Of a stretch of 39,035 nt of DNA, positions 1-29,318 are shown piece by piece. The notes beneath the pieces were generated by a model that saw nothing but the letters and a program-made list of their open reading frames with translations, ran no database searches and had not been told where the DNA came from. Source of the DNA: a virus. Where the stretch lies: UHGV virus genome UHGV-0212837; one strand, given 5' to 3'. Every line of letters starts with the position of its first letter. The stretch's first letter is position 1. The position numbers and the translations under genes are program-made.

Positions 1-891
1 ATGGGCGTCGTTAAGTTAGCTGATTACAGGCATAACCCTGTACAACATCAGGAGGCATCCAGTATGGGGTATGTCTCTATACACCGCCAGTTTATGGACA
101 GCAGGCTCTATAAGGACTCTCAGGCAGTACATCTTTGGCTTCACTTAATCCTCAAGGCTAATCACGAATCTACTGTCGTCAATACGGATATCGGTCCGAT
201 AACTGTTGATCGCGGTCAGATGATAACTGGACGCCCGTCGCTGGTCAGAGAAACATTCATCCCCGACAACAAAGTTCGGAGCTTATTACGGACTTTTGAG
301 TCGAAAGGGATGCTTGATATTTGCTCGATGGGGAAGAAATTTAGCCTGTTTACAATCGTTAAATATGACGATTTTCAGGCAAAAAATTGTCCAACGGTTG
401 TCCAACGGATGTCCAACGCAAACACCAGTAATGGCGCGGCTCTCAGCGGAGATTGTCCAACGGTTGTCCAACGGTTGTCCATAAACAATAATATAAATAA
501 TATCTCTAATACTGACGTATTAGAGAGTGCCACAGCAGACAAAAAGTCTGACAAGAAAAAACCTTCCGTCAGCTGTCAGGATGTTGTCGATGCTTACCAC
601 GAAATCCTTCCTGAAGCGCCAAGAATCCGCGCACTGAATGACAAGCGTAAAAACCAGATCCGAACGTTCTGGCGCAAAGCCGGAGTGATAACCCGCCAGC
701 TTGACGGGCATGGGTTCACGATGCAGGACTGGAGAAATTATTTGAGCTACGTAGGCGAAAATTGCCGATGGATGTTCGAAGAACGCCCAAACCATCAACG
801 CGGAACCGTCTGGCACAAAAAGGGATTTGATTTCCTGCTTAACGACAATACCTACCTGAAAGTTCGTGAGGGTGAACACGATGACCGATAA
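1..891 (+). CDS. Replication initiator, lambda O / P22 gp18-like (296 aa); ori iterons lie inside the coding sequence
   Basis: ATG at 1 preceded (across the window end) by AGGAG at 39025-39029; N-terminal winged-helix-like domain; in-frame iterons encode repeated CPTVVQR; sits upstream of the helicase as in P22. Confidence 0.7.
   Translation: MGVVKLADYRHNPVQHQEASSMGYVSIHRQFMDSRLYKDSQAVHLWLHLILKANHESTVVNTDIGPITVDRGQMITGRPSLVRETFIPDNKVRSLLRTFESKGMLDICSMGKKFSLFTIVKYDDFQAKNCPTVVQRMSNANTSNGAALSGDCPTVVQRLSINNNINNISNTDVLESATADKKSDKKKPSVSCQDVVDAYHEILPEAPRIRALNDKRKNQIRTFWRKAGVITRQLDGHGFTMQDWRNYLSYVGENCRWMFEERPNHQRGTVWHKKGFDFLLNDNTYLKVREGEHDDR
388..480. repeat. Origin iterons: 5 copies of (T)TGTCCAACGG at about 11-bp spacing (388-418 and 453-474) plus a partial sixth, followed by an AT-rich tract 481-520
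   Basis: Direct repeats read in sequence; arrangement (iterons then AT-rich inside the initiator gene) matches lambda ori organisation. Confidence 0.65.
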
Positions 892-2317
892 TTTTTATGC
901 GCCGCCCCATAGCATCGAGGCAGAGCAGGCGGTTATTGGTGGATTGCTTCTGGATGATGACAGCAGTGAGCGCGTCCGGAAAGTTCTGGCGATGCTGAAG
1001 CCTGATTCATTTTACAGCCGACCACACAAAATCCTTTTCGAAGAAATAACCAGAATGCACCGGGAGCAAAAGCCAGTAGATGGGCTGACGCTTTTCGATG
1101 AACTGGAGCGCAAATCGTTAACGGCGTCTGTTGGCGGTTTTGCTTATATCGCTGAGATCGCAAAGAACACGCCAAGCGCAGCAAACATCGTTGCCTATGC
1201 AATGCAGGTTCGTGAAACCGCAATGGAACGCTACGCCATCAACCGCATGACTGAAGCGACGGAATTGCTCTATTCCCGCAACGGAATGACTGCAACGCAG
1301 AAGTACGAAGCTATTCAGGCGATTTTCACGCAACTGACAGATCATGCAAAAACCGGATCGCGTCGCGGCCTTCGCTCATTTGGTGAGGTCATGGAAGACT
1401 GGGTTAGTGACCTTGAGAAGCGATTTGACCCATCAGGCGAACAACGGGGAATGAGCACAGGGATCCCATCGCTGGACAGGATGCTGTCACCGAAAGGTCT
1501 GGTGAAAGGCTCTCTGTTTGTCATTGGCGCCCGCCCTAAGATGGGGAAAACGACGCTATACAGCCAGATGGCAATCAATTGCGCAGTGCATGAGAAAAAG
1601 CCCGCTCTGATGTTCAGCCTTGAAATGCCAGGTGATCAGATACTGGAAAAACTGGTAGGGCAGAAGTCTGGTGTTAACCCGAATATTTTTTACCTTCCGG
1701 CGACAAATGACGCTGATGACGGCTATCAGGGTGATTACGATGGTGACTTCAACAGGGCGATCGAAACAGCCAATCGCTTGAGTGAAATCGACCTGCTTTA
1801 CATCGACGACACGCCGGGATTATCTCTGGCTCAAATCGTCAGCGAAAGCCGTCGAATCAAGCGAGAAAAAGGATGTGTTGGCATGATTCTGGTCGATTAC
1901 CTGACACTAATGACCGCTGAAAAGGCCGATCGCAACGACCTTGCTTACGGCATGATCACCAAAGGACTGAAGAACCTTGCCAAAGAGCTTGATTGCGTTG
2001 TTGTGCTTCTGACACAGCTTAACCGCGCACTGGAAAGCCGAACCAATAAACGCCCATTACCAAGTGACTCACGAGATACAGGGCAGATTGAACAGGATTG
2101 CGATTATTGGGTGGGGATCCATCGTGAAGGTGCTTTTGATGACAGTGTTCCACCTGGTGAAACCGAACTAATCCTTCGTCTCAATCGTCATGGCAATACC
2201 GGCACGGTGTATTGCATTCAGGCAAATGGCGCTATTTATGACACAGACCAACAGTCCGCTGAAATGCGCCGCCGTGAACGCGAGGAGCCGCAGTCCAAGA
2301 AGAAAGGAGGATTCTGA
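881..2317 (+). CDS. Replicative DNA helicase, DnaB family (P22 gp12-like)
   Basis: Walker A GARPKMGKT, DnaB N-terminal motif PPHSIEAEQAVIGGLLLD; ATG at 881 with GAGGGTG SD; track ORF begins at an upstream GTG (866). Confidence 0.85.
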   Translation: MTDNFYAPPHSIEAEQAVIGGLLLDDDSSERVRKVLAMLKPDSFYSRPHKILFEEITRMHREQKPVDGLTLFDELERKSLTASVGGFAYIAEIAKNTPSAANIVAYAMQVRETAMERYAINRMTEATELLYSRNGMTATQKYEAIQAIFTQLTDHAKTGSRRGLRSFGEVMEDWVSDLEKRFDPSGEQRGMSTGIPSLDRMLSPKGLVKGSLFVIGARPKMGKTTLYSQMAINCAVHEKKPALMFSLEMPGDQILEKLVGQKSGVNPNIFYLPATNDADDGYQGDYDGDFNRAIETANRLSEIDLLYIDDTPGLSLAQIVSESRRIKREKGCVGMILVDYLTLMTAEKADRNDLAYGMITKGLKNLAKELDCVVVLLTQLNRALESRTNKRPLPSDSRDTGQIEQDCDYWVGIHREGAFDDSVPPGETELILRLNRHGNTGTVYCIQANGAIYDTDQQSAEMRRREREEPQSKKKGGF

Positions 2318-2345
2318 TGACCATCTACATCACTGAGCTAATAAC

Positions 2346-2377
2346 AGGCCTGCTGGTAATCGCAGGCCTTTTTATTT
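2346..2377 (+). terminator. Rho-independent terminator after the replication genes (tR2-like)
   Basis: AGGCCTGC-8 nt loop-GCAGGCCT followed by TTTTTATTT. Confidence 0.5.
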
Positions 2378-2392
2378 GGGGGAGAGTAAATC

Positions 2393-2599
2393 GTGGCTGA
2401 GTTAATTTTCTCTGCATTGAGGATTCTCGGTGCTATGTGGATGGTGGCGACGTTCATTGTTGTTGCCAGCAGTTTTGTCCGGTTGGTAGGCGAAGGTAAA
2501 GACCTGGTGGGTGTGCTTTTCGGTAGCATTTTCCTGTGGGTGATTATCGGTGTTATGCCTGTCGCTGTAGCAAAAATGGCGTGGCGTTTTGTGAGTTGA
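2393..2599 (+). CDS. Small membrane protein (68 aa, two predicted TM helices)
   Basis: GTG start with GGAGAG SD 6 nt upstream; hydrophobic segments. Confidence 0.45.
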   Translation: MAELIFSALRILGAMWMVATFIVVASSFVRLVGEGKDLVGVLFGSIFLWVIIGVMPVAVAKMAWRFVS

Positions 2600-2616
2600 A
2601 CTGAGGGTAAGTATCG

Positions 2617-2907
2617 ATGGACGAATCAAGAAAGCAGTTTGAAGAAAGTTGGTTGCGACGTGGGGGCGAATCTTCAGACCTTATCCGTTACCCTGAAAAT
2701 CACCATGAAATTGGCAGCGGTAATATTGGTGGTCAATACGTGATGGACGATGTTCAAGGCCACTGGCAAACGTGGCAGGCATCGCGAGCAGCTATTGAAA
2801 TTGAGTTGCCTGTATGGTTTGTCAGTGATGCTATTGCTGTGTACGACCGTGACGATATCGATGAATCCATCCGCGCCGCTGGAATCAAAGTGAAGGAGTT
2901 AGCATGA
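2617..2907 (+). CDS. Hypothetical acidic protein (96 aa)
   Basis: ORF in operon context; stop overlaps next start. Confidence 0.45.
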   Translation: MDESRKQFEESWLRRGGESSDLIRYPENHHEIGSGNIGGQYVMDDVQGHWQTWQASRAAIEIELPVWFVSDAIAVYDRDDIDESIRAAGIKVKELA

Positions 2908-3089
2908 GTCGACGAAGTAGCTTTTTGGGGTTTGTAATATTCCTGTCCTGCACTGGTTACATCGTAATCTGGTCAATTTTGAACATTGACCGTGGCGGGG
3001 AATATCTCATTGTAATGTTCTTTCCTTTGTTTCTTGGGTGGTACTCCGCAAGGTTGCTGGAAGAATGGGGTTACAGGCATAAAAAATAA
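2904..3089 (+). CDS. Small membrane protein (61 aa)
   Basis: ATGA overlap with upstream ORF; two hydrophobic segments. Confidence 0.4.
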   Translation: MSRRSSFLGFVIFLSCTGYIVIWSILNIDRGGEYLIVMFFPLFLGWYSARLLEEWGYRHKK

Positions 3090-3100
3090 AGGAGTATTCA

Positions 3101-3511
3101 GTGAAGCAAACAATCTTCCTCCGAACTAAGCAACAACAGCAAGCTGCAATAAATGCCATCCTCGCAACACCACTCGATAAAGACAAGCCAATCACCATCC
3201 TCATTACTGACTACAAGCGCAACCTTGACCAGAACGCAAAATTTCACGCGATGCTGGCGGATATCGCACGTCAGGTTCAATGGTGCGATAAATGGTTAAA
3301 ACCAGAACAATGGAAGGTTTTGTTGATCAGCGGTCATGCAGTGGCAACAAAGCAGGAAGCTGATGTTTTGCCCGGGCTTGAAGGCGAATACGTCAACATT
3401 CGCGAAAGTAGCGCGCAGATGAGCGTGAAGCGCATGGCAAGCCTGATTGAGTACACGACAGCATGGGCTATTGGTCAGGGTGTCATATTTACCGACAGGA
3501 GGTACGAATGA
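3101..3511 (+). CDS. ninB: NinB (Orf family recombination mediator)
   Basis: Protein closely resembles recalled lambda NinB; GTG start with AAGGAG SD. Confidence 0.8.
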
Positions 3512-24935: not shown

Positions 24936-27242
24936 ATGTCAGATATCACCGCAAATGTTGTGGTAAGCATGCCTTCGCAACTCTTCACTATGGCGCGTTC
25001 TTTTAAAGCGGTTGCCAATGGCAAAATTTATATCGGAAAAATTGACACTGACCCGGTAAATCCAGAAAACCAGATCCAGGTTTATGTGGAGAACGAAGAC
25101 GGCTCTCACGTTCCTGTTTCGCAACCAATCATCATTAACGCTGCCGGATATCCGGTATATAACGGACAGATTGCCAAGTTCGTAACTGTGCAAGGTCATT
25201 CTATGGCTGTGTACGATGCATATGGGGCGCAGCAGTTCTATTTTCCGAATGTGCTGAAGTATGATCCTGATCAGTTACGGAAACAGGTGGAGCATAATCT
25301 TTTTAATATTTGGAAAGAGCTATCTAATAGCTATGGTATTAATCTAATAGGAACATTTGAGTCAGGATTTACAATTGACGACAGGAGACAGGCAGGGCTT
25401 TTTCTTAAAGATGGTAAAGTTTATACAAGGAAAGGATTAGATAATGTTATTGTCCCTCCGGGGAGTTACCCAGAACCTTCATTATGGGAGCCTGTTTCTT
25501 TTATAAAAGAAGAAACAATATATGTAGGAATAGAACCATTTAAGTTACATGAAAGTAATGATGGTGCAAAAAATGATGAAATTCTTGAAAGGCTTGCGAG
25601 ATATATTGAAACAAGAAGTGGGCCTGTGAGGGTAATTTTTCCAAAAGGAGATTTTTATGTTGGAAGCCAGTATCTTTCAGGTGCGACAGGATTTGGCGGG
25701 TCTTATATACCAAACCAGAAATGTACAGTAAGAAATTTCAATTATCCACTGCGGTATGAATTTAATGATAGCAATTTTATTTTCTCAGATGGATTGCGGG
25801 TTGGGTCATTTGATCCGGTAACTGGCCTCCCAATTAAAACAATTCAAACAAATTTTGACTATCGTGCAAATAGAGGTATTTTATTTGGGTTTAATGGCTG
25901 TCCAATTGTTTCCATCTCAGGAAGAGTTAATATTGATTTCAATGGAAAGAGTGTAATATTAGGCGGGGAGTTCGGGGATTCTGGATATCAATGTCCAGAA
26001 TATGGATTTTGGTTTATTGATCATAAGGTTTTGATATTTGATGCACATTATACAGCATATGACGGAGCAATGGATGCTATTTATTTAGCAGGATTGAATG
26101 GAGATGATTGTTATTCACGAGTTACTAATTTCTCTATTAACAAAATGGGGCGTTCAGCTTTTGTTGTTGCTGGCGGAGACAATATTTATATTAGTGGCGA
26201 CGCCTATAACTCCGGGCTTGGTAGTATATCAAGTTCACCTGGACATAACTTTGCCATAGAGTCAGAAGTACGCAAAATTTCAAATGTAGTACTTGAAGGA
26301 GTTACTGCAAATGAAGCAAAATTCTCTTCATTTAGCATCTATAGGACTCAATCGAATCCAGTTAATGACATTAAGGTGGTAAACTCATATCTTTCAAATT
26401 CTTTCAACATAACATGCAAATCAAATACACCTAATTTAAAATACATTGATTGCACTTTTAGAGGGTTGATTGGAGAGCACAGAAATGAGTTCTTTGATCA
26501 TTCAGTCGACTTAAGAGCTGCAAAACTGATAAGATGTAATCATTATGATACCAAGCCAGACGGTTCTTTAACGAACGCATCAAATGGCACCCATTTTGAT
26601 AGTTCTAAAATAATTAGATTAACATTCAGTGAATGTAATATCATATCATCCGGGTTCAAGCCTGGAAGAGGAACAATAGGTTCAATATATGAAGCTGTAA
26701 TAGATGGCCTGACTGTCACTGTTAACGGAGATATCACGTTTGCCGCAACAAATGGTATAAAAATACTTAATTTTGAAAATCCAGTAAAGATAGAAAATTT
26801 TGAATTAATAAATAGGACAATAGGTAACGGCACAGATTCGCAACGAGCATATATAGGTGTGTCTGGAATTGAAAATGCATCTATAAAAAATGCAGCAATA
26901 TCAGGGGTTGGGCAAGAGAAAGACACCATACTTTGGTTGTATCCATTAATAAATTCCGGGGGAAGGGCGGGTCGCCTTGTTGATAGGGATGCCAAATCTT
27001 CTGTAGGGGCACAACAATTCCTTTCTTTAGGGACGGATTCATATTTGAATGAATCGCAGAATGTATCAGGGTATCAAAGAATATTTTCTGTAACACAGTT
27101 GCCAAAAACTGGATATTGGGTTAGAGGAGATGTTTTATTTTTCAAAAATCCTTCGCCAGGTGGTCACATTGGTTTTGTATGCACATCTTCTGGAGAAGGA
27201 GAAGGTGCAATATTCAAAGCATTTGGGGCAATAAGTCCTTAG
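24936..27242 (+). CDS. Tailspike protein: P22 gp9-type head-binding domain (first ~110 aa) fused to a divergent AT-rich receptor-binding domain
   Basis: [11 protein letters not shown]...NVLKYDPDQ matches P22 gp9 N-terminus; remainder unrelated to recalled P22 gp9; start at ATG 24936 with GGAG SD. Confidence 0.9.
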
Positions 27243-27346
27243 TAAGGATATCTTTGATATTAATTTATTTTATATAAATAAGCTAAGGTGCATATACAAA
27301 GCTTTGCACTTAATTGCAAGGCTTTGTGCACTTCGATAGTGGTTAA

Positions 27347-27366
27347 GGTGGATCACTCCACCTTTT
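27347..27366 (+). terminator. Candidate terminator after the tailspike
   Basis: GGTGGA-TCAC-TCCACC followed by TTTT. Confidence 0.45.
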
Positions 27367-27664
27367 CATCAAGCCAGTCCGACCACCACTGCATCATTTC
27401 TCTGCGCTTATCGTGGTAGATGCCTCACTATCACACGGTGATAGTTCATTACTGGTTTGCATAATGGATAGAGAACTGAGGATAAAAGATATCCCAAAAC
27501 CCCAAAATCTCATCTTTAGGATTTGCAGAAAGGGAGGCGTGAACAAATACCTGCGCATGAAAACGGAACTAGTCCAGATGTGATGTTTGTGGTGATCACA
27601 TACATCATTAACGATGCTCGTTATGGTAAGTTTGATGACTACCCGATGAAGTGAAAATTGTGTT

Positions 27665-27686
27665 GTGTACCAAATTGCGTACCAAA
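27665..27686 (+). repeat. Two direct copies of G(T/C)GTACCAAA (candidate integrase arm-type or regulator sites)
   Basis: Copies at 27665-27674 and 27677-27686. Confidence 0.45.
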
Positions 27687-27915
27687 CTAAAATCACAAAT
27701 CATGAAACCCTTGTTCATGGCGGTTCTCATGGGTGTTGCGCGTAATCGTGAAAGAGGAAGGTAGGTTGTTTGTCTGTGTCTGTCATTGTCTAGCATTGTC
27801 CACTGTAGTTAATTAACTGTCTGTTATAACTCGAAAAACAACCTTTTTTTCACCTGAGTATGTCTACGAACGTCAAATATAGTTGTTTACTGTGCGCTGT
27901 TGTCCATGTGATATT

Positions 27916-27959
27916 GTGTACCAGATGTGTACCAAACCATTATTTTTGAGCGTACCAAA
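27916..27959 (+). repeat. Three further copies of G(T/C)GTACCA(A/G)A just upstream of int
   Basis: 27916-27925, 27927-27936, 27950-27959, same orientation as the 27665 cluster. Confidence 0.45.
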
Positions 27960-27967
27960 TATTATTT

Positions 27968-29146
27968 ATGGCTATAAGCGACACAAAACTGCGTACTATT
28001 TATGGTAAACCATATTCTGGCCCACAAGAAGTGGCTGATGCCGATGGGCTCAGCGTACGAATTTCACCGAAGGGGGTCATCCAGTTCCAGTACCGCTATC
28101 GCTGGCATGGCAAGCCTAATCGACTTGGGCTTGGTCGATATCCATCCCTGTCTTTGAAGGATGCCAGACAGATCACTGCTGACTTGCGAAAGCTCTATTT
28201 CTCAGGAACGGATCCACGCACCTATTTTGAAGAGAAGGTGGAGAACTCCATGACGGTCGCCCAGTGTCTCGACTACTGGTTCGACAACTACGTCTCTACA
28301 ACTCTCAGAGAAAAGACCCAGGCACTTTACCGATCAACGGTTATGAAGCGCATGCATGACGCATTTCCTAATCGTCCGGCATCTTCTATCACGGTTAAGC
28401 AATGGGTTGACCTGCTTACCGAAGAAGAAAGAGATAATCCACGCCGAGCAAGGCAGGTGCTAAGTCAACTAAGATCAGCAATAAGTTGGTGCATGCGGCG
28501 TCAGTTGATAGATAGTTGCGCAATTATGAGCATCCAACCAAGGGACTTCGGCTCCCGTGCTGAGGTAGGGGAGCGGGTACTGTCGTATCACGAACTAGCT
28601 AAGATTTGGCTTGCTATTGAAAGAAGCCGTGCGTCTACGTCAAATAAGCTCCTTCATCAGATGCTTATGCTGTGGGGGGCGAGGCTCTCAGAGCTTAGGC
28701 TGGCAACAAAGACAGAATTTGACCTGCTGGACAACGTATGGACCGTACCGAAAGAGCATAGCAAGATGGGTAATGTTATCCGCCGTCCAATCTTCGAACA
28801 AATTAAGCCTTTTCTCGAAAAGGCCATGACAACGTACAATGATGTTCTTTTCCCTGGAGAAGACATAAACAAACCGATCAGCATCGCTGCAGCCAACCGA
28901 TTCGTAAATAGAATAAGGGGAGGGATGGACATAGGTTACTGGCGAACACATGATTTCAGAAGAACGCTTGTTACACGGCTGTCCGAGATGAATGTCGAGC
29001 CCCATGTTACTGAGCGAATGCTCGGTCATGAACTTGGCGGGATAATGTCCGTGTACAATAAACACGACTGGATAGAGGCTCAGCGCAAAGCGTATGAGCT
29101 TCACGCTGATAAATTGTTCTGGCACATCAGGAGCATTTCTGATTAA
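27968..29146 (+). CDS. int: Tyrosine integrase (P4-type N-terminal arm-binding domain)
   Basis: 392 aa; catalytic region with R...H..R...Y pattern (HDFRRT, GHELGG, SVYNKH); N-terminal domain typical of P4-like integrases. Confidence 0.9.
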   Translation: MAISDTKLRTIYGKPYSGPQEVADADGLSVRISPKGVIQFQYRYRWHGKPNRLGLGRYPSLSLKDARQITADLRKLYFSGTDPRTYFEEKVENSMTVAQCLDYWFDNYVSTTLREKTQALYRSTVMKRMHDAFPNRPASSITVKQWVDLLTEEERDNPRRARQVLSQLRSAISWCMRRQLIDSCAIMSIQPRDFGSRAEVGERVLSYHELAKIWLAIERSRASTSNKLLHQMLMLWGARLSELRLATKTEFDLLDNVWTVPKEHSKMGNVIRRPIFEQIKPFLEKAMTTYNDVLFPGEDINKPISIAAANRFVNRIRGGMDIGYWRTHDFRRTLVTRLSEMNVEPHVTERMLGHELGGIMSVYNKHDWIEAQRKAYELHADKLFWHIRSISD

Positions 29147-29318
29147 CGCCACCGTTAAGAATCCACCATTCAACAGCTTCACGAAGGTATGATTTGGGGT
29201 GGGTTCTGACTGGCTTCGGAAATCCGTGCCGTTTGGTATAGTTCCAGATTGTCTGACGTGATGAAACACCGAGCTTGTTCATCACTTCTTTCTCAGGAAT
29301 CAGGCTGGTATCGGTCAT
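29127..29318 (-). CDS. xis: AlpA-family excisionase / DNA-binding regulator
   Basis: 63 aa HTH resembling AlpA/Xis; GGAGA SD; 3' end overlaps int 3' end by 20 bp, convergent. Confidence 0.55.
   Translation of the reverse strand: MTDTSLIPEKEVMNKLGVSSRQTIWNYTKRHGFPKPVRTHPKSYLREAVEWWILNGGVNQKCS

What the first reader, a model, noticed from the sequence alone, without database searches (positions are those of the whole stretch)
27243..27967. Candidate attP region with five GTGTACCAAA-type repeats
Five same-orientation copies of G(T/C)GTACCA(A/G)A fall into two clusters (27665-27686 and 27916-27959) flanking an AT-rich segment, directly upstream of int. They could be integrase arm-type sites or binding sites for the AlpA-like regulator controlling int. 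No tRNA-derived core was recognisable.
Basis: partly seen in the sequence, partly recalled or inferred. Interest (0 to 1): 0.5.

Follow-up and report, generated by a model that had tools for sequence, protein, structure and literature searches.

The report
Phage attP with integrase arm sites
This is the attachment site the phage uses to insert into the start of the E. coli sbcB gene; the five repeats are most likely docking sites for its integrase, and the site itself is already published, so the finding is correct but ordinary.

Summary
G(T/C)GTACCA(A/G)A occurs five times in the 39-kb window. All five are on the + strand, at 27665, 27677 and at 27916, 27927, 27950 (0.17 expected by chance).

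The attP reading is supported. The 13-bp core CGTAATCGTGAAA (27741-27753) lies between the two clusters. It is identical in K-12 attB and at both junctions of a P22-like lysogen. It is the published "type 2851" attP of phages 2851, Sf101, mEp234 and HK544. It comes from codons 13-17 of sbcB, not from a tRNA.

The repeats are best read as integrase arm-type sites, P1 and P2 left of the core and P'1-P'3 right of it:
- Int carries an Arm-DNA-binding domain.
- In 63 of 85 distinct int-upstream regions of Int relatives (42-100% identity), three GTAC sites keep the same spacing (11, then 23-24 bp). They end just before the int start, while the spacers and target genes differ.
- Vibrionaceae relatives have three GTGTCCAAA sites instead.
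- The P1/P2 pair sits 286-304 bp upstream of int in four attP-form lineages.

Binding itself is inferred, not shown. Only about 27655-27967 is attP; 27401-27654 is a decayed umuD-like gene.

Side observation: the P' arm carries a replacement 5' end for sbcB.

Low novelty.

The parts
27665..27674 (+). P1, candidate Int arm-type site GTGTACCAAA (P arm)
   Evidence: Exact pattern match. A pair at the same distance from int is seen in attP-form relatives L038, L064 and L006. It is retained at attR of the lysogen.
27677..27686 (+). P2, candidate Int arm-type site GCGTACCAAA, 12 bp start-to-start from P1 and 54 bp left of the core
27711..27718 (+). TTGTTCAT box between P2 and the core; a candidate accessory (RDF?) site, unassigned
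   Evidence: Same motif and orientation as the boxes in the P' arm.
27741..27753 (.). attP core CGTAATCGTGAAA (crossover region). It is identical to attB in sbcB codons 13-17 (reverse complement TTT CAC GAT TAC G)
   Evidence: Alignment of attB, attL, attR and attP. Published core of 2851/Sf101. Annotated in mEp234 and HK544.
27754..27786 (-). Phage-borne replacement of the first 11 codons of sbcB (ATG at 27786-27784; MTDTDKQPTFL, then FHDY from the core). In the free phage it is only a 19-codon ORF, 27727-27786
   Evidence: Read directly from the sequence. In attL it fuses in frame to sbcB, which is annotated as an intact 474-aa exodeoxyribonuclease I. The same arrangement is seen in 39 of the 92 loci examined.
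27796..27803 (+). TTGTCCAC box, 120 bp upstream of the GTAC of P'1; a candidate accessory-protein site
   Evidence: GTYCA at -120 in 15 of 59 relatives, with strong strand bias.
27807..27818 (.). Palindrome AGTTAATTAACT. A GTTnnTTAAC-type block is conserved in sbcB-type relatives; role unknown
   Evidence: I18; alignment.
27886..27915 (+). Candidate int promoter: -35-like TTTACT (27886-27891), 18-bp spacer containing the TTGTCCAT box (27900-27907), and a TG-extended -10-like TGTGATATT (27907-27915). Inferred only
   Evidence: The block CATGnnATATTG is conserved in relatives with at least 59% Int identity. GTYCA at -16 from P'1 in 42 of 59 loci. The consensus scan did not call a promoter here.
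27916..27925 (+). P'1, candidate Int arm-type site GTGTACCAGA
   Evidence: Position conserved across the family.
27927..27936 (+). P'2, candidate Int arm-type site GTGTACCAAA, 11 bp from P'1
   Evidence: Spacing is 11 in 61 of 63 relatives.
27950..27959 (+). P'3, candidate Int arm-type site GCGTACCAAA, 23 bp from P'2; it ends 8 nt before the int ATG
   Evidence: Spacing is 23-24 in 57 of 63 relatives.
27968..29146 (+). int, a tyrosine integrase (392 aa) with an N-terminal arm-binding domain
   Evidence: Pfam Arm-DNA-bind_3 at residues 4-85 (E 8e-18) and Phage_integrase at 204-366. PDB matches to CP4-like integrase N-domains 3jtz/3ju0 and to lambda Int 1z1b. At least 99% identical to 2851-type integrases.
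29127..29318 (-). AlpA-like small HTH protein, probably the excisionase/RDF. It is convergent with int and overlaps it by 20 bp
   Evidence: ORF list. PHROG 66, 'excisionase and transcriptional regulator', E 1.8e-8. No Pfam hit.
27401..27654 (+). Decayed umuD-like (S24 peptidase) gene remnant.
   Evidence: tblastn with HK140_028 gives two pieces in different frames with an internal stop and no N-terminus. HK544, HK140 and APC_JM3.2 share attP only from about 27586-27591 rightward.

Best explanation
Window ~27655-27967 is the attP of a P22-like temperate phage. The phage uses a 2851-type, P4/CP4-like tyrosine integrase to insert into the 5' end of the host sbcB gene.

Shown:
- Strand exchange takes place within the 13-bp core CGTAATCGTGAAA (27741-27753), which attP shares with attB.
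- The core-proximal 33 bp of the P' arm carry a substitute start codon and 11 codons, so sbcB stays an intact reading frame in the lysogen.

Inferred:
- The five G(T/C)GTACCA(A/G)A repeats are arm-type sites bound by the N-terminal Arm-DNA-binding domain of Int. Two lie on the P arm (P1, P2; 12 bp apart, 54 bp left of the core). Three lie on the P' arm (P'1-P'3; 11 and 23 bp apart, so on one face of the helix, starting 162 bp right of the core).
- Int bound to arm and core sites at once, with DNA bending, would build the intasome, as in lambda and KplE1.
- P'1-P'3 fill the last 52 bp before the int ATG. In a lysogen int has only the ~180-bp P' arm as upstream DNA, so the int promoter must overlap these sites. 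Int, and probably the AlpA-like excisionase, would then repress int, as shown for KplE1 intS.
For: Core:
- attB, attL, attR and attP share exactly CGTAATCGTGAAA, and the flanks swap as expected.
- The core is identical to the published attP of 2851 and Sf101, with an sbcB junction verified by PCR (PMC4159516).
- It is annotated as 'attP type 2851' in mEp234 and HK544, and as a 147-bp putative attP in HK140.

Repeats are real: 5 found against 0.17 expected, all on one strand.

Int can bind arms: Pfam Arm-DNA-bind_3, E 8e-18; N-terminus matches solved CP4-like integrase N-domains.

Comparative footprint:
- Of 85 distinct int-upstream regions from relatives with 42-100% Int identity, 63 have exactly three GTAC sites in the last 56 nt.
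- Spacing is 11 in 61 of 63 and 23-24 in 57 of 63. Only 0.02% of shuffled 56-mers have three or more GTAC.
- Spacers are not conserved. Target genes differ: sbcB, or the 5' end of argW.
- The motif drifts as Int diverges: GTACC, then GTACA, then three GTGTCCAAA sites in Vibrionaceae.

P-arm pair: found only in attP-form loci, at -303/-291, -302/-290, -304/-292 and -298/-286 from the int start, in four lineages with 57-100% Int identity.

Left limit of attP: phages with unrelated left flanks share sequence only from ~27586-27591 rightward.

Autoregulation precedent: KplE1 intS (PMC2951348).
Against: - No binding or recombination data exist for these repeats. No paper in the held library mentions their sequence.
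- No IHF consensus site was found in the arms.
- The consensus scan called no sigma-70 promoter in the P' arm, so the promoter assignment and autoregulation rest on hand-picked, weak elements.
- Int and the AlpA-like protein diverge together, so motif drift does not tell which of them reads the repeats.
- The association of Int residue 39 with GTACC versus GTACA is confounded by phylogeny and is not clean.
Confidence: 0.8

Rival explanations
1. The five repeats are operators for the AlpA-like protein (29127-29318), which acts as excisionase or transcriptional regulator of int. They are not integrase arm sites.
For: - The AlpA-like gene always accompanies int and diverges in parallel with it, so motif drift fits it equally well.
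- Three sites lie directly on the int leader/promoter region.
- RDFs of this kind repress int in KplE1.
Against: - The sites lie on both arms in the classic 2+3 arm-site layout, about 250 bp apart. The P-arm pair has no promoter to regulate.
- In KplE1 the sites nearest the ATG are the Int P' sites, and the RDF sites (GTTCG, GTCCG, GATCG) lie upstream of the -35.
- Here a separate, strand-biased GT(T/C)CA box family occupies that upstream position: 97 on the + strand against 5 on the - strand, with a peak at -16 in 42 of 59 loci. That family is the better RDF candidate.
- Int has a dedicated arm-binding domain that needs a target.
Confidence: 0.1
2. The repeats are only promoter or leader elements of int, or sites for a host factor or the phage repressor, with no role in recombination.
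For: P'1-P'3 sit in the 52 bp before the int ATG, where the int promoter or leader must lie.
Against: - The same motif recurs as a pair on the far side of the core, at a fixed distance, in four lineages. A promoter element would not.
- The motif changes with Int lineage rather than with host.
Confidence: 0.05
3. The repeats are a chance or duplication-derived feature without function.
For: None beyond their short length (10 bp).
Against: - 5 found against 0.17 expected, with none of 100 shuffles reaching 5.
- Number and spacing are conserved in 63 of 85 relatives down to ~45% Int identity, while the spacers diverge.
Confidence: 0.01

Closest known systems
attP 'type 2851' of Stx2c phage 2851, Shigella phage Sf101 and coliphages mEp234, HK544 and HK140
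   Same: - Identical 13-bp core CGTAATCGTGAAA.
- 93-97% identical DNA over the aligned attP and int-start stretch.
- Integrase at least 99% identical to 2851-type integrases; 14 phage records reach this level.
[quoted passage not shown]
   Different: Only the flanks differ. Here the site sits in a P22-like podovirus behind a tailspike gene and a decayed umuD-like gene. Published work and annotations name the core, or a 147-bp stretch in HK140. I found no description of the five arm repeats in the held literature.
KplE1 (CPS-53) / HK620 / Sf6 recombination module: IntS, TorI and an attL that overlaps the intS promoter (PMC2951348)
   Same: - int is transcribed away from the core, so the P' arm lies between core and int.
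- Three P' arm sites lie next to the ATG.
- RDF-type boxes lie upstream (GTTCG/GTCCG in KplE1, GT(T/C)CA here).
- The RDF gene is not co-transcribed with int.
- The predicted outcome is negative autoregulation of int.
   Different: - IntS is only 23% identical to this Int, and TorI is not detectably similar to the AlpA-like protein (E 0.93).
- The arm motif differs: the P' sites share TAAA in KplE1, against GYGTACCARA here.
- The target is the 3' end of tRNA argW, against the 5' end of a protein gene.
- Regulation is untested here.
Bacteriophage lambda attP (P1, P2 / core / P'1-P'3, with Xis, IHF and Fis sites)
   Same: A heterobivalent tyrosine integrase, with two arm sites on one arm and three closely spaced sites on the other, flanking a short core. 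The catalytic part of Int matches lambda Int structures 1z1b and 5j0n.
   Different: - The long arm here is the int-proximal one (about 215 bp, against about 76 bp).
- int points away from attP and needs its own promoter in the arm.
- A different arm-binding domain family (PF13356).
- No recognisable IHF consensus.
Phages that rebuild the gene they insert into (for example phage 21 and e14 in icd; from general knowledge, not tested here)
   Same: The phage carries a diverged copy of the displaced end of the target gene, so the reading frame survives integration.
   Different: Here the 5' end is replaced, that is the start codon and 11 codons. The promoter must therefore also come from the phage arm.

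Membership tests
attP of a heterobivalent (lambda/P4-type) tyrosine integrase | Adjacent gene for a tyrosine recombinase with a catalytic domain | tested here: met
   PF00589 at residues 204-366, E 7.5e-17. Matches lambda Int structures.
attP of a heterobivalent (lambda/P4-type) tyrosine integrase | The integrase has a separate N-terminal arm-DNA-binding domain | tested here: met
   PF13356 Arm-DNA-bind_3 at residues 4-85, E 8.2e-18. PDB 3jtz, E 1.7e-11.
attP of a heterobivalent (lambda/P4-type) tyrosine integrase | A short core identical in attP and attB, present at both prophage junctions with exchanged flanks | tested here: met
   CGTAATCGTGAAA is present in K-12 attB and in attL and attR of NZ_CP062910.
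attP of a heterobivalent (lambda/P4-type) tyrosine integrase | Repeated arm-type motif, unlike the core, on both sides of the core | tested here: met
   2+3 sites. Geometry conserved in relatives.
attP of a heterobivalent (lambda/P4-type) tyrosine integrase | The Int N-domain physically binds the arm repeats, and they are needed for recombination | not testable with these tools
   Needs EMSA or footprinting and mutant att sites.
attP of a heterobivalent (lambda/P4-type) tyrosine integrase | Sites for bending proteins (IHF) in the arms | tested here: inconclusive
   The only WATCAANNNNTTR match with one mismatch or fewer in attP lies inside P'2, and the window total is at chance level.
attP type 2851 (sbcB-integrating phages) | 13-bp core 5'-CGTAATCGTGAAA-3' upstream of int | tested here: met
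   Window 27741-27753. Published sequence.
attP type 2851 (sbcB-integrating phages) | 2851-type integrase | tested here: met
   99.0-99.5% identity to the integrases of Stx2a_WGPS4 and EC.P3. 14 phage records reach at least 99%.
attP type 2851 (sbcB-integrating phages) | Insertion in the 5' end of sbcB | tested here: met
   A lysogen with a near-identical P arm (~96% identical) and P' arm has the prophage between sbcB and dacD. This particular phage was not observed as a prophage.
KplE1-type module with autoregulated int (promoter overlapping attL) | int reads away from the core, so its promoter must lie in the P' arm; the RDF gene is transcribed separately | tested here: met
   Gene order and strands. 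In attL only 181 bp separate the sbcB and int start codons.
KplE1-type module with autoregulated int (promoter overlapping attL) | An identified promoter overlapped by P' and RDF sites | tested here: inconclusive
   No promoter called by the scan. A conserved TG-extended -10-like block lies next to P'1.
KplE1-type module with autoregulated int (promoter overlapping attL) | Repression of int by Int and by the RDF | not testable with these tools
   Needs reporter fusions with and without Int and Xis.
KplE1-type module with autoregulated int (promoter overlapping attL) | Sequence relatedness of Int and RDF to IntS and TorI | tested here: not met
   Int is 23% identical to IntS. The RDF compared with TorI gives E 0.93. 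So this locus works like KplE1 but is not a member of that module family.

The most novel reading that the evidence does not exclude
The ~180-bp P' arm may be a dual-purpose control region. Besides the arm sites and the int promoter, it supplies the start codon, the first 11 codons and necessarily the promoter of host sbcB (exonuclease I) in every lysogen. Occupancy of the arm by Int or Xis could therefore couple host ExoI expression to the prophage's state.

The replacement of the 5' end is shown. 39 of the 92 loci examined, from Enterobacterales, Orbaceae and Aeromonas, keep an open sbcB frame with an element-supplied ATG, GTG or TTG, and a fixed 171-181 bp between the sbcB and int starts. 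The regulatory coupling is speculation.
Probability: 0.2. Interest if true: 0.5.

Novelty: already known. Interest (0 to 1): 0.2.

Why it matters
It fixes the phage's integration site at the 5' end of sbcB, a site that carries this element's P arm in about a third of complete E. coli genomes and is also used by Stx2c phages. It also gives a precise map of attP, with two plus three arm sites, the core and candidate excisionase boxes. That map can guide experiments or use of this integrase as a tool.

Scientifically it adds little. The core and target are published, and arm sites are expected for this class of integrase. The family-wide fixed geometry and the phage-supplied 5' end of sbcB are useful descriptive additions.

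Tried and rejected
- tRNA search of the whole window found none, so there is no tRNA-derived core.
- Rfam scan of 27000-28200 gave only one chance-level hit, E 0.58, so there is no known RNA element.
- The IHF consensus search was at chance level.
- The promoter/terminator scan found nothing in the P' arm. The promoter candidates I list are hand-picked and marked as inferred.
- I tried to decide between Int and the AlpA-like protein by covariation of protein residues with the GTACC and GTACA motif variants. Int residue 39 ranks second of all columns, but the partition is not clean and is confounded by phylogeny. I do not use it as evidence.
- TorI and the AlpA-like protein show no significant similarity. 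The resemblance of the GT(T/C)CA boxes to TorI sites (GTTCG/GTCCG) is therefore only a lead.
- I first suspected that the 475-bp match to 1865 E. coli genomes was host DNA carried by the phage. Inspection showed it is the P arm plus the umuD-like remnant at the attR ends of resident prophages.
- The original phage 2851 paper (Strauch 2008) is not in the held library, so I could not check whether it describes arm repeats.

Full report
**Observation**

The 10-mer G(T/C)GTACCA(A/G)A occurs five times in the 39,035-bp window, always on the + strand. The sites are at 27665, 27677, 27916, 27927 and 27950. Dinucleotide-preserving shuffles give 0.17 on average and never more than one. Relaxing to two mismatches adds nothing near the region and returns to chance level.

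The last copy ends 8 nt before the ATG of a 392-aa ORF at 27968-29146. That ORF is a tyrosine integrase. It has an N-terminal Arm-DNA-binding domain (PF13356, residues 4-85, E 8e-18) and a catalytic domain (PF00589). It matches solved N-domains of CP4-like integrases and lambda Int.

A 63-aa AlpA-like HTH protein is encoded convergently at 29127-29318. It matches a PHROG family of excisionases and regulators.

**Where the core is**

A BLAST of 27200-28100 against phages hit mEp234 and HK544, which carry the annotation "prophage attachment site (type 2851)". In mEp234 the annotated 13 bp are CGTAATCGTGAAA. This corresponds to window 27741-27753, between the two repeat clusters.

I checked this independently.
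- In E. coli NZ_CP062910 a P22-like prophage with a near-identical attP lies between sbcB and dacD.
- Its left junction reads sbcB...ggtttCGTAATCGTGAAAgaggaaggtagg...int.
- Its right junction reads ...P1 P2...attgcgCGTAATCGTGAAAcaaaaaggtaga...dacD.
- The empty K-12 site reads ...ggtttCGTAATCGTGAAAcaaaaaggtaga....

The flanks recombine exactly at these 13 bp. The Sf101 paper reports the same 13-bp attP, identical to that of phage 2851, and a PCR-verified junction in the 5' end of sbcB (PMC4159516). No tRNA gene is present in the window. So the core is sbcB-derived: its reverse complement, TTT CAC GAT TAC G, encodes SbcB residues F-H-D-Y-(E).

**Extent of attP**

HK544, HK140 and APC_JM3.2 have unrelated genes to the left. 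They share sequence with the window only from ~27586-27591 rightward. HK140's annotated "putative attP" corresponds to window 27624-27770.

The stretch 27401-27654 is a decayed umuD-like gene. It matches HK140_028 in two frames, has an internal stop and lacks the N-terminus.

**Are the repeats arm-type sites?**

The layout is two sites 54 bp left of the core and three sites starting 162 bp right of it, all in one orientation. The spacings are 12, 11 and 23 bp, so neighbours lie on one helical face. This is the layout expected for a heterobivalent integrase.

The stronger evidence is comparative. I collected loci encoding Int relatives from IMG/VR, from species-representative genomes and from GenBank phages.
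- Of 85 distinct int-upstream regions (Int identity 42-100%), 63 have exactly three GTAC-centred sites in the last 56 nt.
- The first spacing is 11 bp in 61 of 63, and the second is 23-24 bp in 57 of 63. Only 0.02% of shuffled 56-mers contain three GTAC.
- Between the sites the sequence is free to vary.
- The targets differ. They are sbcB for relatives at about 59% identity or more, and the 5' end of argW for the 53-57% group (L009 bases 1-24 are the reverse complement of the start of argW).
- The motif drifts with Int divergence: GTACCAAA, then GTACAnAA, then three copies of GTGTCC(A/T)AA in Vibrionaceae relatives with nearly the same geometry.
- The P-arm pair is absent from attL-form loci, as expected. 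It is present in all four attP-form lineages I could examine, at -303/-291, -302/-290, -304/-292 and -298/-286 from the int start.

This ties the repeats to the recombination module rather than to the host, the target or chance.

It does not prove which protein binds, because Int and the AlpA-like protein co-diverge. A residue-by-motif association test was not decisive. I favour Int for three reasons:
- It has an arm-binding domain that needs a target.
- The sites are on both arms.
- In the experimentally dissected KplE1 module the sites next to the ATG are Int P' sites, while the RDF sites lie further upstream.

**Other elements in the arms**

A second motif, GT(T/C)CA (TTGTTCAT at 27711, TTGTCCAC at 27796, TTGTCCAT at 27900), is not enriched window-wide. 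In 59 relatives, however, it is almost exclusively on the int strand (97 against 5). It peaks 16 bp upstream of the GTAC of P'1 in 42 of 59 loci and at -120 in 15 of 59. These are exactly the window positions.

KplE1's TorI sites are GTTCG, GTCCG and GATCG, placed just upstream of the intS -35. These boxes are therefore my candidates for excisionase sites. TorI and the AlpA-like protein are not detectably similar, so this is only a lead.

Next to the -16 box lies a conserved CATGnnATATTG block. It reads as a TG-extended -10 (TGTGATATT, 27907-27915), with a weak -35-like TTTACT 18 bp upstream. The automatic scan did not call it. If it is used, transcription would start in P'1, and Int bound to P'1-P'3 would block it. 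No IHF consensus was found.

**Mechanism proposed**

Shown: the position and identity of the core, the target gene, the domain content of Int, and conservation of the number and spacing of the repeats.

Inferred:
- Int N-domains bind P1, P2 and P'1-P'3 while the catalytic domains act at the core.
- The AlpA-like protein acts as the directionality factor.
- int is transcribed from a promoter inside the P' arm and is repressed by its own product, following the KplE1 paradigm in which attL overlaps the int promoter (PMC2951348).

**Side finding**

On the minus strand the P' arm next to the core encodes ATG ACA GAC ACA GAC AAA CAA CCT ACC TTC CTC (27786-27754). This runs in frame into the core's TTT CAC GAT TAC. 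After integration sbcB begins MTDTDKQPTFLFHDYETFG instead of the native MMNDGKQQSTFLFHDYETFG, and it is annotated as an intact 474-aa exonuclease I.

The same holds in 39 of the 92 loci examined, from many genera. Each has an element-supplied ATG, GTG or TTG start and an open frame to the end of the locus. The sbcB and int start codons are a constant 171-181 bp apart. The native sbcB promoter is left at attR, about 39 kb away. So the arm must also supply the sbcB promoter in lysogens. That promoter was not identified.

**Comparison and verdict**

This is the known type-2851 attP: the same core, 93-97% identical DNA over the aligned stretch, and an integrase at least 99% identical. It works like the lambda and KplE1 sites, but it is not a member of the KplE1 module family (Int 23% identical to IntS).

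I found no description of the five repeats in the held literature, and the original 2851 paper was not available. Arm sites are in any case an expected feature.

Novelty is low.

Noticed in passing
window 27754-27786 (- strand); L004 4387-4419; 39 loci: The P' arm carries a substitute start codon and 11 codons for host sbcB. Integration leaves an intact, slightly altered exonuclease I gene (MTDTDKQPTF... instead of MMNDGKQQSTF...). The pattern is conserved in 39 of the 92 loci examined, across genera, with 171-181 bp between the sbcB and int starts. The sbcB promoter must then also come from the phage arm; it was not identified.
   Followed up: partly
window 27401-27654 (+): Decayed umuD-like (S24 peptidase) gene between the tailspike gene and attP. 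It matches the intact HK140_028 protein in two frames, has an internal stop and lacks the N-terminus.
   Followed up: yes
window 27296-27327 and 27345-27364: A 16+16-nt near-perfect palindrome (ACAAAGCTTTGCACTT / AATTGCAAGGCTTTGT) and a GC-containing hairpin (AAGGTGGA tcac TCCACCTT) lie just downstream of the tailspike gene. They may be a terminator for the late operon. The terminator scan did not call them.
   Followed up: no
window 27711-27718, 27796-27803, 27900-27907; 59 relatives: GT(T/C)CA boxes are almost only on the int strand in relatives (97 against 5). They sit at fixed positions, -16 and -120, from P'1. They resemble the TorI (RDF) site cores GTTCG/GTCCG of KplE1. Role unassigned.
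   Followed up: partly
window 27807-27818: Perfect palindrome AGTTAATTAACT in the AT-rich part of the P' arm. A GTTnnTTAAC-type block is conserved in all 12 aligned sbcB-type relatives. No function assigned.
   Followed up: no
L006 982-1006; L009 1-25 versus L090 210-233: Int relatives with 53-57% identity (Stx2a phages such as PA8, 06-3462 and Lyz12581Vzw) have an att core that is the reverse complement of the first ~24 nt of tRNA argW. So they too target the 5' end of a gene, with the same 2+3 arm-site geometry.
   Followed up: partly
L147-L161 (Vibrio and Photobacterium genomes), last 60 nt before int: Int relatives with 45-48% identity carry three direct GTGTCC(A/T)AA sites (spacing 12, then 20-22 bp) in place of the GTAC sites. 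This is a clear motif switch with the architecture retained.
   Followed up: partly
L172 (E. coli O157:H7 MB9-1, NZ_CP040107 2014760-2015562): A complete attP-like junction (P arm, core, P' arm, int) lies between the tail end of one prophage and the int end of another. This suggests two prophages in tandem at the sbcB site.
   Followed up: no
(E. coli complete genomes): 1865 of 5426 complete E. coli genomes contain a match to window 27296-27770 (P arm plus umuD-like remnant). Most matches end at or just past the core. The sbcB/dacD site therefore seems to be occupied by elements of this type in about a third of sequenced strains.
   Followed up: no
window 27955-27970 and 29127-29146: int has no recognisable Shine-Dalgarno sequence (ccaaatattatttATG). 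int and the AlpA-like gene converge and overlap by 20 bp at their 3' ends.
   Followed up: no
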